The notes beneath the pieces are model-generated. The model did not search any database and had not been told where the DNA came from. It saw only the letters and a program-made list of their open reading frames with translations. A program made the position numbers and the translations under genes. From the sequence record NC_048204.1: a DNA stretch of 50,343 bases; one strand, written 5' to 3'. The stretch is from Escherichia phage vB_Eco_mar001J1. Shown piece by piece: positions 1 through 50,343 of this stretch (positions within the stretch are counted from its first letter, which is position 1; the number at the start of each line of letters is the position of its first letter).

Positions 1-127
1 AAAATTATGTCCAGCAAGTTTTTAGTAGTTCGCGTATATAATCATGACAACGAATCTTCTTCTGAAATCCCGACAATTTATGACAGGGATTTTGGATGGA
101 GTGAGCAATCGGCTGTTGAAAATGAGC
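1..127. repeat. Terminal direct duplication: 1-127 is identical to 50217-50343 (circular permutation or assembly overlap)
   Basis: Exact match of window start and end read directly from the sequence. Confidence 0.9.
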
Positions 128-3931: not shown

Positions 3932-4657
3932 TTAGCTCCGTTTGCGTGCGCGACGTTCGGTTACAGAAGGGCAAATATCGCTGATCTTAACGTATCGCGT
4001 TTTCTGCTCCTCGCCTTCTTTAAGTTTGCGCATGACAAAAATCACGCTTCCCTTGTTGTTGCCCTGCACAGGCTCACCAGTCAATCCAGACACAAAGGCA
4101 ATTCTTCCGGTGCGGGAGTATTCTACTCCACCCTCTTCGTAAACCTCACCAGTGATCCAGATGATTTCAGCCGCGTTTTTCTGCGCCTCATAAAACCATG
4201 CTGTAGAGTTGTCGGCTGGCAACAAAACATCAATTTGGTTGTTGTGCTCCATTTGCTCAATTGCTTTCTTGATAAATGGAGTTGGGTTGCTGTACGGCGG
4301 GTTAAGCCATACGTGCTTGTTGCTACCCCACCAACGCTTTAAGCAGTTTGTTTCCTTGCTATAGAACTTCTCGCAAACTGCGTTTTCCTGGCTTGCTGCC
4401 GCGTCTAGATCGTATTCACCAAATTCTGATTCCATCCACTCCACGATCTCTTGAGGCGTGCTCCACATATCTCGCACAACGTCCGGCGTAGTGCTTCCAG
4501 CGTATCGGTTTCCGCTTACCTTATAATATTGATTTGGCTTTACTGCCTGGTAATGGCCTCCAGTTGCAAGGGCATTCCCTATAAACGTTTCTCTCTCCAA
4601 CTGCTCAAAGCTAACGAATGCGTCATGGGTGTCTTTATCTAAAATATCTTTAGCCAT
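3932..4657 (-). CDS. dam: DNA N6-adenine methyltransferase (phage Dam-like)
   Basis: NPPY catalytic motif (WLNPPYSNP); start placed at MAKDIL after GGAGA RBS, alternative ATG at 4684. Confidence 0.8.
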   Translation of the reverse strand: MAKDILDKDTHDAFVSFEQLERETFIGNALATGGHYQAVKPNQYYKVSGNRYAGSTTPDVVRDMWSTPQEIVEWMESEFGEYDLDAAASQENAVCEKFYSKETNCLKRWWGSNKHVWLNPPYSNPTPFIKKAIEQMEHNNQIDVLLPADNSTAWFYEAQKNAAEIIWITGEVYEEGGVEYSRTGRIAFVSGLTGEPVQGNNKGSVIFVMRKLKEGEEQKTRYVKISDICPSVTERRARKRS

Positions 4658-4697
4658 TTTCATTTCTCCGCTATTAAAAGCCATCTCGTGTTATTGA

Positions 4698-45890: not shown

Positions 45891-45936
45891 TAAATTGATG
45901 GGCGCTAATGCGCGCCCTTAAATATAGGAATGAACG

Positions 45937-46047
45937 ATGAATAAAATTACTTATATTACTCTTTCTGTTGTTGTTTTTATGCTTGGAGTCACTATTGCGG
46001 CGTCATGTGTGGCATTAATTTATATTATGTTTAAGGTGATGATCTGA
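45937..46047 (+). CDS. Small membrane peptide (36 aa, below the ORF-track cutoff)
   Basis: Manual translation MNKITYITLSVVVFMLGVTIAASCVALIYIMFKVMI; AGGAATGA RBS. Confidence 0.4.
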   Translation: MNKITYITLSVVVFMLGVTIAASCVALIYIMFKVMI

Positions 46048-46271
46048 TGAGTCAAGACGGTTTTTTTGAGCGCCTTCAAATGGCAGAAGATTCCGGACTA
46101 AATAAAGAGGCGGCGCTTGAAGTTGCATATAAAATTAAGACTCTTGATGAGGCTTTAGGTGATATGGATATGGATCTTGAATCAAGCGCAATATTTGCAG
46201 ATCCCACTATGATTGTTAATGATTGTGGATGCGATTTCGATCCTGGTTGTCCGCGCTGTTTTCCGTTTTGA
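46047..46271 (+). CDS. Acidic protein with C-terminal Cys cluster (CGCDFDPGCPRC)
   Basis: Track ORF; directly upstream of the methyltransferase-like gene. Confidence 0.5.
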   Translation: MSQDGFFERLQMAEDSGLNKEAALEVAYKIKTLDEALGDMDMDLESSAIFADPTMIVNDCGCDFDPGCPRCFPF

Positions 46272-46281
46272 GGTAATGACG

Positions 46282-46992
46282 ATGTATAAAGGTTTAATAT
46301 TCTCACTATTTGATGGATCTGGTAAGGCCGTTAAAGACTGGGCTGATAATGGCTATAAGTGCATTTGCTTTAATGCTGACGGTGGCGATCACGGTGATTA
46401 CCAGTCAGTGCGCATACAGCATGAGAATATCGAATACGTTAACGTCTGGATTGATGATGCTTTTTATGTTAAGGCAATCAATAATGAGTGGGGCAATCCT
46501 GATTTTATTATGGCCTTCCCACCATGCACCGACCTTGCAAATAGCGGATCTCGCCATTGGGCCAAAAAACGCCTTGAGAATCCATCGTTCCAGGATGAGG
46601 CCGCCGACACTTGCAGAATAGCGGCTGATATAGGTGATTATTTCGGTGTTCCTTACATGATCGAAAATCCGGTTGGCAAGTTGTCAACGTTATGGCGTAA
46701 GCCTAATTATACGTTCCATCCGTGCGATTACGCTGGCTATCTGCCGGAAGATGATAAACACCCCGACTTCCCTGATATTATTCCGGCGCGGGATCGCTAC
46801 TTTAAGAAAACGTGTCTCTGGACTGGCAACGGCTTTGTTATTCCTCCACGCGCTTTAATCCTGCCGAAAGAGGAAGACAAAGATAATCCAGGCTGGGCCA
46901 AAACTGGCGGCAAGTCATCGCGCACAAAGATGATCCGCTCCCTCACTCCGCGCGGCTTTGCTCGCGCCGTCTTTGAGTCAAACTCAAAATAG
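46282..46992 (+). CDS. DNA cytosine-C5 methyltransferase-like protein, unusually short with PCT in place of PCQ
   Basis: Motif I LFDGSG, motif IV AFPPCTDLA, motif VI ENPVGK; only 236 aa, no obvious target-recognition domain. Confidence 0.55.
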   Translation: MYKGLIFSLFDGSGKAVKDWADNGYKCICFNADGGDHGDYQSVRIQHENIEYVNVWIDDAFYVKAINNEWGNPDFIMAFPPCTDLANSGSRHWAKKRLENPSFQDEAADTCRIAADIGDYFGVPYMIENPVGKLSTLWRKPNYTFHPCDYAGYLPEDDKHPDFPDIIPARDRYFKKTCLWTGNGFVIPPRALILPKEEDKDNPGWAKTGGKSSRTKMIRSLTPRGFARAVFESNSK

Positions 46993-47032
46993 CACTTTTT
47001 GTTAAAAGCCAGGTGTAAAAACCTGGCATAAT
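46989..47032 (+). promoter_or_regulatory. Cassette promoter candidate (20-mer, hairpin CCAGGTGTAAAAACCTGG, CATAAT, CCGAAACGAAAGGAG leader)
   Basis: 22-bp spacing; overlaps TAG stop of the methyltransferase-like gene. Confidence 0.55.
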
Positions 47033-47063
47033 CACTTCACCGAAACGAAAGGAGAAATAAACG

Positions 47064-47291
47064 ATGACAAAGAAGAGAACAATAAAATGCACAAAAGTTT
47101 ACCACCACATGAACAGCGTAAAGCCAGGTCAGCATTTTAAGGAAGGGAAACGCTATGAGATAATTATGGGAAGGGTTTTAGGCGCTGTAGCTGGTTACGT
47201 TGTTGATGCTCAAGGTGAGCAATGGACTCTTGAAAGACGCGAGGTGGGATTTAAATGTGCAATAGCGGAATTTCAAGGCAAGTACTTCTAA
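47064..47291 (+). CDS. Hypothetical protein (75 aa)
   Basis: AAGGAGA RBS. Confidence 0.55.
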   Translation: MTKKRTIKCTKVYHHMNSVKPGQHFKEGKRYEIIMGRVLGAVAGYVVDAQGEQWTLERREVGFKCAIAEFQGKYF

Positions 47292-47776
47292 ATTTATTTA
47301 TATATGAAAATGGTCGTCTATTATGGAAAAGCCCATCAGGAAGACGGGCAAAAATTGGCGATGAGGCAGGTTATATAACTAAAAACGGATATAGACGTAT
47401 AGGTATTGGTGGCAGAGAGTATCCGGCGCATTGGATTGTTTGGTGGATGCATGGAAAAACAATACCAAAAGGAATGGAGATAGATCACGTGAATCACATA
47501 AGAGATGACAATAGAATCGAAAACCTCCGGCTTGTCACAAGAAAACAAAACTCACAAAACCACACAAGGAGATCGACAAATAAATCTGGTTATACTGGCG
47601 TGATGTGGAATAAGAGGGTGTCTAAATGGTGCGTACAAGTAACTGTTGATGGCAGGTGTATTTCTGGTGGTTATCATGCATCAATTGATAGCGCTGTATC
47701 ATCAAGAGATGCTATTTGGAAAAAGTACGGATTCCACGAAAACCACGGAAGCGAGAAGCCTTATGATCAAGACTGA
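47255..47776 (+). CDS. HNH-AP2 homing endonuclease
   Basis: MEIDHVNHIRDDNRIENLR HNH motif; SGYTGV...W AP2-like segment. Confidence 0.75.
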   Translation: MCNSGISRQVLLNLFIYENGRLLWKSPSGRRAKIGDEAGYITKNGYRRIGIGGREYPAHWIVWWMHGKTIPKGMEIDHVNHIRDDNRIENLRLVTRKQNSQNHTRRSTNKSGYTGVMWNKRVSKWCVQVTVDGRCISGGYHASIDSAVSSRDAIWKKYGFHENHGSEKPYDQD

Positions 47777-50186: not shown

Positions 50187-50343
50187 TGTTTCATCGAAAC
50201 GAAACAACCAAAAGGTAAAATTATGTCCAGCAAGTTTTTAGTAGTTCGCGTATATAATCATGACAACGAATCTTCTTCTGAAATCCCGACAATTTATGAC
50301 AGGGATTTTGGATGGAGTGAGCAATCGGCTGTTGAAAATGAGC

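What the first reader, a model, noticed from the sequence alone, without database searches (positions are those of the whole stretch)
46047..46992. Minimal cytosine-C5 methyltransferase-like enzyme with PCT catalytic motif, paired with a Cys-cluster acidic protein
The protein at 46282-46992 has motifs I (LFDGSG), IV (AFPPCTDLA) and VI (ENPVGK) of DNA C5-methyltransferases but is only 236 aa, seems to lack a target-recognition domain, and has Thr where the motif-IV Gln is normally invariant. It could be a non-canonical or promiscuous DNA-modifying enzyme (anti-restriction modification, possibly a hypermodification step) or a catalytically altered binder. The overlapping upstream gene (46047-46271) encodes an acidic protein ending in CGCDFDPGCPRC, a possible zinc-binding partner. 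The genome also encodes a separate Dam-type adenine methyltransferase.
Basis: partly seen in the sequence, partly recalled or inferred. Interest (0 to 1): 0.6.

Follow-up and report, generated by a model that had tools for sequence, protein, structure and literature searches.

The report
Known phage Dcm-like cytosine methyltransferase
This gene is the T1-like phages' small "Dcm-like" DNA cytosine-C5 methyltransferase: it is already annotated as dcm and is 89% identical to a phage enzyme shown experimentally to raise 5-methylcytosine in a bacterial retron's DNA and set off that defence, so the finding is real but not new.

Summary
The window is the rotated genome of Escherichia phage vB_Eco_mar001J1 (Drexlerviridae, Warwickvirus). 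RefSeq already calls it dcm.

It is 89% identical, ungapped over all 236 residues, to Dcm of phage KarlJaspers/Bas06. The Bas06-like phage K42 has a 711-bp dcm that triggers retron Ec86 (Eco1). Expressed alone, K42 Dcm raises 5mC in retron msDNA, and a C82A/E128A/K175A/K176A mutant is inert. All four residues are present here at the same positions.

The upstream 74-aa acidic protein with four invariant cysteines is real. It does not overlap dcm: there is a 10-nt gap. It accompanies dcm only in close Drexlerviridae relatives (8 of 80 viral loci). K42 Dcm works without it.

Still open: the true sequence specificity (CCWGG is assumed, not measured) and the small protein's role.

Verdict: already known; low interest.

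The parts
46282..46992 (+). dcm-like DNA cytosine-C5 methyltransferase CDS (236 aa plus stop). Catalytic Cys82 lies in FPPCT, Glu128 in ENP, with K175/K176; the C-terminal conserved block is R219-SLTPRGFARAV.
46270..46273 (+). GAGG ribosome-binding site, 8 nt before ATG 46282. It overlaps the stop codon of the upstream gene.
   Evidence: Sequence. The same GAGG sits before Bas06 dcm. K42 retron-escape mutants carry a point mutation 9 bp upstream of the dcm start; that position falls in this GAGG in Bas06 (inference).
46047..46271 (+). 74-aa acidic protein (pI 4.05). It has an N-terminal helical part and a C-terminal C60-G-C62-x5-C68-x2-C71 cluster. Function unknown.
   Evidence: ORF. PHROG 9323 (unknown function), E=3e-36. 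84% identity to bas06_0056. Four Cys invariant in 25 homologues. AF2 model poor, pLDDT 61.7.
47008..47027 (+). 7-bp GC-rich hairpin (GCCAGGT-gtaaaa-ACCTGGC) 16 nt after the dcm stop. It contains two CCWGG sites and has no T-run.
   Evidence: RNA fold of the surrounding 86-nt stretch (46985-47070) gives z = -3.46 against shuffles, and its centroid structure is this stem alone. CCWGG positions 47009 and 47022. Not flagged as a terminator.
3932..4684 (-). The phage's separate T1-type Dam N6-adenine methyltransferase (RefSeq start at 4657).
   Evidence: Pfam PF05869, E=1.1e-61. RefSeq 'dam'.

Best explanation
The gene encodes an active, orphan, AdoMet-dependent DNA cytosine-C5 methyltransferase. 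It is the Drexlerviridae 'Dcm-like' enzyme and an orthologue of phage K42/KarlJaspers Dcm.

Inferred mechanism, from the conserved chemistry of the fold: Cys82 of the FPPC loop attacks C6 of a flipped-out cytosine, Glu128 of ENP acts on N3/N4, the methyl group of AdoMet goes to C5, and beta-elimination releases the enzyme. The catalytic large domain is complete. The small (target-recognition) domain is reduced to about 30 residues, as in no solved bacterial enzyme; the closest resemblance is to the DNMT3 catalytic domain.

Biology. Shown for the orthologue: expressed alone, it raises 5mC in retron Ec86 msDNA and activates that abortive-infection system, and phages escape the retron by losing the gene. 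Inferred: the phage keeps the gene because methylating its own DNA protects it from some cytosine-sensitive restriction enzymes. The target motif, CCWGG, is assumed by analogy and by msDNA mutagenesis; it has not been mapped.

The upstream Cys4 protein is a lineage-specific neighbour, not a required subunit.
For: - Orthology: 89% identity with no gaps to KarlJaspers Bas06 Dcm. C82, E128, K175 and K176 are identical, the gene length is the same (711 bp), and the neighbours are the same.
- Function of the orthologue (bioRxiv 10.1101/2023.08.16.553469; published as Cell Rep 2024;43:114857). All four K42 escapers of retron Ec86 disrupt, or potentially disrupt, dcm: a deletion, a frameshift and two point mutations 9 bp upstream of its start. 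Dcm expression is toxic only with the retron present. LC-MS shows high 5mC in msDNA with the wild type but not with the quadruple mutant.
- Family conservation in 232 sequences: P80 221, C82 224, T83 209, E128 225, N129 219, P130 229, D171 221, Y173 228, K175 221, R219 226.
- One homologue is fused to a D12 N6-adenine DNA methyltransferase. A prophage copy sits next to a Dam gene in a lambdoid nin region, with no annotated or Pfam-matched restriction endonuclease among its neighbours. Both fit an orphan DNA-modification role.
Against: - No sequence-profile method links it significantly to canonical C5-methyltransferases. Pfam and NCBIfam give no hit at E<=1. The family profile against PDB sequences gives M.HaeIII only at E=0.27. 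hhalign against E. coli Dcm gives probability 0.3%.
- The canonical motif VIII second Arg is not conserved in the family (Ala in 173 of 232). The C-terminal block cannot be assigned unambiguously to motif IX or motif X.
- Activity was shown for a relative, not for this protein, and I could read only the preprint.
- CCWGG specificity is doubtful. The msDNA assays were done in dcm+ MG1655, yet control msDNA had low 5mC.
- CCWGG sites in the phage genome are neither avoided nor enriched: 108 observed against 117 expected.
- BASEL found no simple relation between methyltransferase genes and restriction resistance.
Confidence: 0.85

Rival explanations
1. It is an active C5 DNA methyltransferase, but its specificity is not CCWGG. 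With almost no target-recognition domain it would read a shorter or degenerate motif, as DNMT3 reads CpG or CmoX reads GpC, giving broad methylation.
For: - The target-recognition segment is only about 30 aa (median 28 in the family).
- There is no detectable sequence relationship to E. coli Dcm.
- Host Dcm in MG1655 did not give high 5mC in msDNA, while the phage enzyme did.
- The preprint's authors suggest that Dcm itself is toxic.
Against: Changing CCTGG to AATGG, ACTGG or CATGG in the msDNA stem abolished defence against K42. This fits CCWGG recognition, although it could also reflect effector binding. No methylome data were found in the literature searches.
Confidence: 0.3
2. It transfers carboxymethyl from carboxy-SAM made by the host CmoA, like phage CmoX, producing 5-carboxymethylcytosine rather than, or as well as, 5mC.
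For: - CmoX is recognised by S-P-P-C plus an Arg replacing M.HhaI Asn304 (PMC12783734). This protein has F-P-P-C and a near-invariant Arg219 (226 of 232) in the C-terminal block, which might be the equivalent position.
- E. coli makes carboxy-SAM.
Against: - LC-MS of the orthologue's product matched a 5mC standard.
- There is no CmoA homologue in this genome or within 4 kb of dcm (less where a contig ends) in 80 related viral loci and one prophage locus (tblastn E<=1). CmoX genes typically sit beside CmoA.
- DNMT3, which is closer structurally, is an ordinary methyltransferase. From my own knowledge, not tested here, DNMT3A also has an Arg (R891) at the Asn304-equivalent position of motif X.
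- The equivalence of Arg219 to Asn304 is not established.
Confidence: 0.04
3. The methyltransferase and the upstream Cys4 acidic protein form a functional pair. The small protein would be a zinc-binding specificity factor, regulator or inhibitor of the enzyme.
For: - The pair has the same orientation and is separated by about 10-16 nt in mar001J1, KarlJaspers and several Klebsiella, Salmonella and Citrobacter Drexlerviridae.
- The four Cys are invariant.
- Phage T1, which has no dcm beside its small-protein homologue, has that homologue without the Cys tail.
Against: - Only 8 of 80 diverse viral loci encoding the enzyme have it; all 8 have Dcm identity of 64% or more.
- The small-protein family is narrow: 80 clusters, all on contigs of roughly 50 kb or shorter.
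- K42 Dcm alone is sufficient for msDNA methylation and retron triggering.
- CLB_P3 and locus L024 carry dcm with a Cys-less small protein 1.4-2.7 kb away.
- The AF2 model of the small protein is poor.
Confidence: 0.12
4. It is a catalytically dead DNA-binding protein, or an RNA (tRNA) m5C methyltransferase like DNMT2.
Against: - The nucleophile Cys82 and Glu128 are conserved at about 97%.
- The orthologue's catalytic mutant loses all activity, and the wild type raises 5mC in DNA.
- DNA methyltransferases score higher than DNMT2.
Confidence: 0.03

Closest known systems
Dcm of phage K42 / Escherichia phage KarlJaspers (Bas06), the trigger of retron Ec86 (Retron-Eco1); PHROG 757
   Same: 89% amino-acid identity over all 236 residues with no gaps. 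C82, E128, K175 and K176 are identical. The gene length is the same (711 bp), as are the GAGG RBS, the 74-aa upstream gene and the DUF3987 helicase further downstream.
   Different: A different genus (Warwickvirus rather than Hanrivervirus) and 26 substitutions. An HNH endonuclease gene is inserted downstream here. No experiment has been done on this allele.
DNMT3A/DNMT3B catalytic domain (e.g. PDB 6u8p, 6f57)
   Different: Only 14-18% identity. There are no regulatory domains, and the recognition region is even shorter. I could not assess whether a DNMT3-type RD/FF oligomer interface exists. It is a phage orphan enzyme, not an evolutionary member of the DNMT3 family on any test made here.
E. 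coli Dcm / M.EcoRII-type CCWGG methyltransferases (Pfam PF00145)
   Same: Shares the name, the presumed chemistry and the presumed CCWGG target. The P-C and E-N-x motifs line up. The C-terminal RSLTPRGFAR block aligns best with Dcm motif IX, RRLTPRECAR.
   Different: 236 aa against 472 aa. No significant sequence or profile similarity. No large target-recognition domain. No significant Vsr homologue (best tblastn hit E=0.15).
CmoX, the phage DNA cytosine C5-carboxymethyltransferase (PDB 8yf3; PMC12783734)
   Different: CmoX has S-P-P-C, here it is F-P-P-C. CmoX is about 350 aa. CmoX genes usually neighbour CmoA or ligase genes, and none is found here. The orthologue of this protein makes 5mC.

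Membership tests
DNA cytosine-C5 methyltransferases (C5-MTase fold; Pfam PF00145) | Motif I, the AdoMet-binding F-x-G-x-G | tested here: met
   L9-F10-D-G12-S-G14. In the family, F10 is present in 172 of 232 sequences, G14 in 201 and G12 in only 121.
DNA cytosine-C5 methyltransferases (C5-MTase fold; Pfam PF00145) | Motif IV, the Pro-Cys catalytic dipeptide | tested here: met
   P81-C82. C82 is present in 224 of 232 sequences. The next residue is Thr (209 of 232) rather than Gln; DNMT3B has Asn at this position.
DNA cytosine-C5 methyltransferases (C5-MTase fold; Pfam PF00145) | Motif VI, E-N-V, with its catalytic Glu | tested here: met
   E128-N129-P130 (E-N-P variant). Counts are 225, 219 and 229 of 232.
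DNA cytosine-C5 methyltransferases (C5-MTase fold; Pfam PF00145) | Motif VIII, Q-x-R-x-R | tested here: inconclusive
   This protein has A169-R170-D-R172-Y-F. The family consensus is R-D-A-Y-x-K-K-T, with the second Arg present in only 12 of 232 sequences; K175 is nearly invariant.
DNA cytosine-C5 methyltransferases (C5-MTase fold; Pfam PF00145) | A sizeable target-recognition domain between motifs VIII and IX | tested here: not met
   Only about 30 residues (183-212) separate the motif VIII strand from the C-terminal helices. The family median is 28 aa. pLDDT is lowest in this segment.
DNA cytosine-C5 methyltransferases (C5-MTase fold; Pfam PF00145) | Motifs IX and X both present | tested here: inconclusive
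   There is only one conserved C-terminal block (R219-SLTPRGFARAV). Its best local alignment is to Dcm motif IX (14 of 500 shuffles score as well). It also resembles the DNMT3 motif X, G-R-S-W-S-V-P (my own knowledge). A profile of the C-terminus finds nothing in PDB sequences.
DNA cytosine-C5 methyltransferases (C5-MTase fold; Pfam PF00145) | A significant match to the curated family HMM | tested here: not met
   No Pfam or NCBIfam family at E<=1. None of the 240 listed homologues carries a precomputed Pfam domain.
DNA cytosine-C5 methyltransferases (C5-MTase fold; Pfam PF00145) | The three-dimensional fold of the catalytic domain | tested here: met
DNA cytosine-C5 methyltransferases (C5-MTase fold; Pfam PF00145) | AdoMet-dependent formation of 5-methylcytosine in DNA | not testable with these tools
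   Reported for the K42 orthologue by LC-MS, with an inert catalytic mutant. Not measured for this protein.
Drexlerviridae Dcm-like enzyme (K42/KarlJaspers Dcm; retron Ec86 trigger) | Full-length collinear orthology, with the experimentally mutated residues conserved | tested here: met
   210 of 236 residues identical, no gaps. C82, E128, K175 and K176 are identical.
Drexlerviridae Dcm-like enzyme (K42/KarlJaspers Dcm; retron Ec86 trigger) | Same genomic position | tested here: met
   In both genomes the order is: 74-aa gene, then dcm, then small ORFs, then the DUF3987 helicase.
Drexlerviridae Dcm-like enzyme (K42/KarlJaspers Dcm; retron Ec86 trigger) | Activates retron Ec86/Eco1 | not testable with these tools
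   Needs plating of mar001J1 and a dcm-deletion derivative on a retron-Eco1 host.
E. coli Dcm / EcoRII-type CCWGG methyltransferases | Sequence homology to Dcm, a Vsr repair partner, and CCWGG specificity | tested here: not met
   hhalign probability 0.3%. No significant Vsr homologue in the genome (best hit E=0.15). Specificity itself cannot be tested here and has not been mapped in the literature I could read.
CmoX C5-carboxymethyltransferases | S-P-P-C motif, the Arg350 equivalent, and a neighbouring CmoA | tested here: not met
   The motif is F-P-P-C, not S-P-P-C. No CmoA homologue is found in the genome or in 81 related loci. The Arg equivalence is unresolved.

The most novel reading that the evidence does not exclude
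The enzyme is not a functional copy of host Dcm. Having lost the whole small domain, it would recognise a target other than CCWGG: a shorter or relaxed motif, read by the catalytic-domain loops alone or with help from the co-transcribed Cys4 protein. Its real methylation pattern, and the reason it fires retron Eco1 when host Dcm does not, would then still be undiscovered.
Probability: 0.25. Interest if true: 0.45.

Novelty: already known. Interest (0 to 1): 0.2.

Why it matters
The practical value is limited.
- It confirms that mar001J1 carries the Dcm-like gene that makes Drexlerviridae visible to retron Eco1/Ec86. That bears on host-range prediction and on choosing phages for therapy.
- It corrects the RefSeq start codon.
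- A widespread phage family (about 1500 phage records) of C5-methyltransferases is invisible to Pfam and NCBIfam. It has almost no target-recognition domain, and its specificity has never been mapped directly in what I could read.
- Mapping that specificity would be a modest but useful addition. It would not be a new kind of system.

Tried and rejected
- hhalign of the family profile against E. coli Dcm was insignificant, although it aligned motifs IV-VI correctly.
- AF2 of the 74-aa protein gave too low a confidence (pLDDT 61.7) to justify a fold search.
- Literature searches for a measured methylation motif of Drexlerviridae Dcm found nothing. The published Cell Reports version is not held.
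- The hypermodification idea is rejected: there is no CmoA, ligase, hydroxymethylase or glycosyltransferase gene.
- The restriction-modification idea is rejected: no restriction endonuclease is annotated or Pfam-matched next to dcm, either here or in a prophage copy.
- CCWGG site counts were uninformative: 108 observed against 117 expected.
- Rfam found no RNA family anywhere in the window.
- The afdb50 fold library was unavailable.

Full report
**Identity of the window.** A megablast of 45900-47100 gives a 100% match to Escherichia phage vB_Eco_mar001J1 (LR027388.1 / NC_048206.1; Drexlerviridae, Tempevirinae, Warwickvirus), whose record is also 50,343 bp long. The window is that genome in rotated form. 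Around the finding, window coordinate = record coordinate + 21241. RefSeq already annotates the ORF as 'dcm, DNA methyltransferase' (HOV63_gp48) and the upstream ORF as hypothetical gp47.

**Checking the observation.**
- The ORF at 46282-46992 (+) encodes 236 aa with LFDGSG (residues 9-14), AFPPCTDLA (78-86) and ENPVGK (128-133).
- The upstream ORF at 46047-46271 encodes a 74-aa protein, pI 4.05, ending in CGCDFDPGCPRCFPF.
- The two genes do not overlap when the 46282 start is used. The upstream TGA ends at 46271, a GAGG ribosome-binding site lies at 46270-46273, and ATG 46282 follows 8 nt later.
- RefSeq's start, ATG 46219 (257 aa), does overlap the upstream gene, but it is probably wrong. 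Most homologues are 227-238 aa. The BASEL annotation of the KarlJaspers orthologue is 711 bp with the same GAGG. Retron-escape mutants of the related phage K42 carry a point mutation 9 bp upstream of that start; in Bas06 that position lies inside the GAGG (inference).
- A T1-type Dam gene is present at 3932-4684 (-) (PF05869, E=1e-61).

**It is a real, widespread gene.**
- PHROG 757 'DNA methyltransferase' matches at E=7e-85.
- There are 2706 homologous 90% clusters and 1137 representatives at 50% identity.
- tblastn finds matches in 1498 phage records: Drexlerviridae, Klebsiella phages of about 50 kb, siphoviruses of about 44 kb, myoviruses of about 137 kb and T4-like genomes of about 164 kb.
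- A copy in an E. coli chromosome lies in a lambdoid prophage nin region beside a Dam gene, with no annotated or Pfam-matched endonuclease among its neighbours.
- One homologue is fused to a D12 N6-adenine methyltransferase.

**What is already known about it.** A preprint (bioRxiv 10.1101/2023.08.16.553469, cited by others as Wang et al., Cell Rep 2024;43:114857) studied phage K42, which is 95% identical to KarlJaspers/Bas06.
- Escapers of retron Ec86 were isolated. All four carried lesions in or just upstream of a 711-bp 'dcm' gene.
- Dcm expressed alone arrests growth only when the retron is present.
- LC-MS shows high 5mC in purified msDNA with wild-type Dcm, but not with the C82A/E128A/K175A/K176A mutant.
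- Mutating the CCTGG site in the msDNA stem abolishes defence.
- Later papers treat this as established for Retron-Eco1.

I fetched KarlJaspers (MZ501090). Its Dcm is 89% identical to the window protein over all 236 residues without a gap, and C82, E128, K175 and K176 are conserved. The 74-aa upstream gene is also conserved (84% identity). The window gene is therefore an orthologue of a functionally characterised phage enzyme.

**Independent test of the fold.**
- Sequence methods fail. Pfam and NCBIfam give nothing at E<=1. phmmer against PDB gives only DNMT3B at E about 0.6, over motifs I-IV. The family profile gives M.HaeIII at E=0.27. hhalign against E. coli Dcm gives probability 0.3%, though it aligns FPPC with FPCQ and ENP with ENV.
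- An AlphaFold2 model built on 150 homologues is confident (pLDDT 92.6, pTM 0.90).
- Foldseek against the PDB is led by DNMT3A/B/C catalytic domains (E about 1e-7).

**Anatomy.**
- Conservation in 232 family members highlights F79-P-P-C82-T83-D-L, E128-N-P130, D171-x-Y173-x-K175-x-T177, W180 and R219-S-x-T-P-R-G-F-A.
- Thr83 is the family norm (90%). DNMT3B carries Asn there, so the Gln is not invariant.
- After the motif VIII strand (177-182) only about 30 residues (183-212, lowest pLDDT) precede two terminal helices. This segment has a median of 28 aa across the family. So 'lacks a target-recognition domain' is correct and is a family trait.
- The single C-terminal conserved block aligns best with Dcm motif IX, RRLTPRECAR. 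From my own knowledge of DNMT3A, it also resembles the DNMT3-type motif X. A C-terminal profile finds nothing in PDB sequences, so this remains unresolved.

**The small upstream protein.**
- Its family is narrow: 80 clusters, almost all 74 aa, on contigs of roughly 50 kb or shorter. It occurs in 448 phage records.
- The four cysteines are invariant. The structure prediction is poor (pLDDT 61.7).
- Among 80 diverse viral loci encoding the methyltransferase, only the 8 with Dcm identity of 64% or more have this gene directly upstream. The others have unrelated neighbours.
- Phage T1 has a homologue of the N-terminal half without the Cys tail and has no dcm beside it.
- K42 Dcm acts alone, so the small protein is not a required subunit. 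A regulatory role is not excluded.

**Hypermodification and other rivals.**
- The annotated genome has no hydroxymethylase, glycosyltransferase or ligase.
- The recently described CmoX carboxymethyltransferase (PMC12783734) is a close structural neighbour. It is defined by S-P-P-C plus an Arg replacing M.HhaI Asn304, and it usually sits next to CmoA.
- Here the motif is F-P-P-C. tblastn finds no CmoA homologue in the window or in 81 related loci, and the orthologue's product co-migrates with 5mC. I keep this reading at a few percent, only because E. coli itself makes carboxy-SAM.

**What remains uncertain.**
- The CCWGG specificity is assumed from the name and supported only by msDNA mutagenesis.
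- The assays were done in dcm+ MG1655, yet control msDNA was poorly methylated. The phage enzyme therefore either reaches a substrate the host enzyme cannot, or has another specificity.
- CCWGG counts in the genome (108 against 117 expected) say nothing either way.
- BASEL found no simple link between Drexlerviridae methyltransferase genes and restriction resistance.
- I found no published methylome for these phages.

**Verdict.** It is wrong or unsupported on the inactive-binder, hypermodification and obligate-partner ideas. The gene is already annotated and its orthologue has been functionally characterised. Novelty: already known. Interest: 0.2.

Noticed in passing
window 1-127 and 50217-50343: The first 127 bases of the window are identical to the last 127 bases, an exact terminal direct repeat. 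It probably reflects assembly overlap or terminal redundancy of the deposited, circularly permuted genome.
   Followed up: partly
window 46219-46281: RefSeq starts dcm at ATG 46219 (257 aa), overlapping the upstream gene by 53 nt. Homologue lengths, the Bas06 annotation and the GAGG RBS favour ATG 46282 (236 aa).
   Followed up: yes
window 45937-46047 (+): An unannotated 36-aa hydrophobic ORF (MNKITYITLSVVVFMLGVTIAASCVALIYIMFKVMI). Its stop overlaps the start of the 74-aa gene (cTGATG). KarlJaspers has a 37-aa ORF (bas06_0057) in the same position, but with no sequence similarity.
   Followed up: partly
window 47008-47027 (+): A stable 7-bp hairpin just after the dcm stop. Its arms are the CCWGG sites CCAGG and CCTGG, the motif proposed as the enzyme's target. 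The surrounding 86-nt stretch folds at z = -3.46 against shuffles. There is no T-run.
   Followed up: partly
window 47255-47776 (+): An HNH_3 homing-type endonuclease gene sits between dcm and the DUF3987 helicase. KarlJaspers has no HNH annotated at this position, suggesting a mobile insertion.
   Followed up: no
phage collection hits MG0656xx ('Campylobacter phage' A134, A112a, A136, B15 and others): About 20-39 records labelled Campylobacter jejuni phages carry near-identical Drexlerviridae or coliphage dcm and 74-aa genes (85% identity for the small protein). They are probably mislabelled or contaminant coliphages.
   Followed up: no
P0248; BFVD A0A6J5SE15, A0A6J5NPY6: The Dcm-like domain occurs fused to a D12 N6-adenine methyltransferase (563 aa). 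It also occurs inside phage proteins of 1100-1400 aa; one of the two is annotated 'Helicase/UvrB, N-terminal', the other is uncharacterised.
   Followed up: partly
window 46372-46374 (residue N31): At the end of strand beta-2, where canonical enzymes have the motif II acidic residue, the enterobacterial-phage subgroup has Asn31 (121 of 232 sequences, usually with Asp33 two residues on). More distant members have Asp31.
   Followed up: partly
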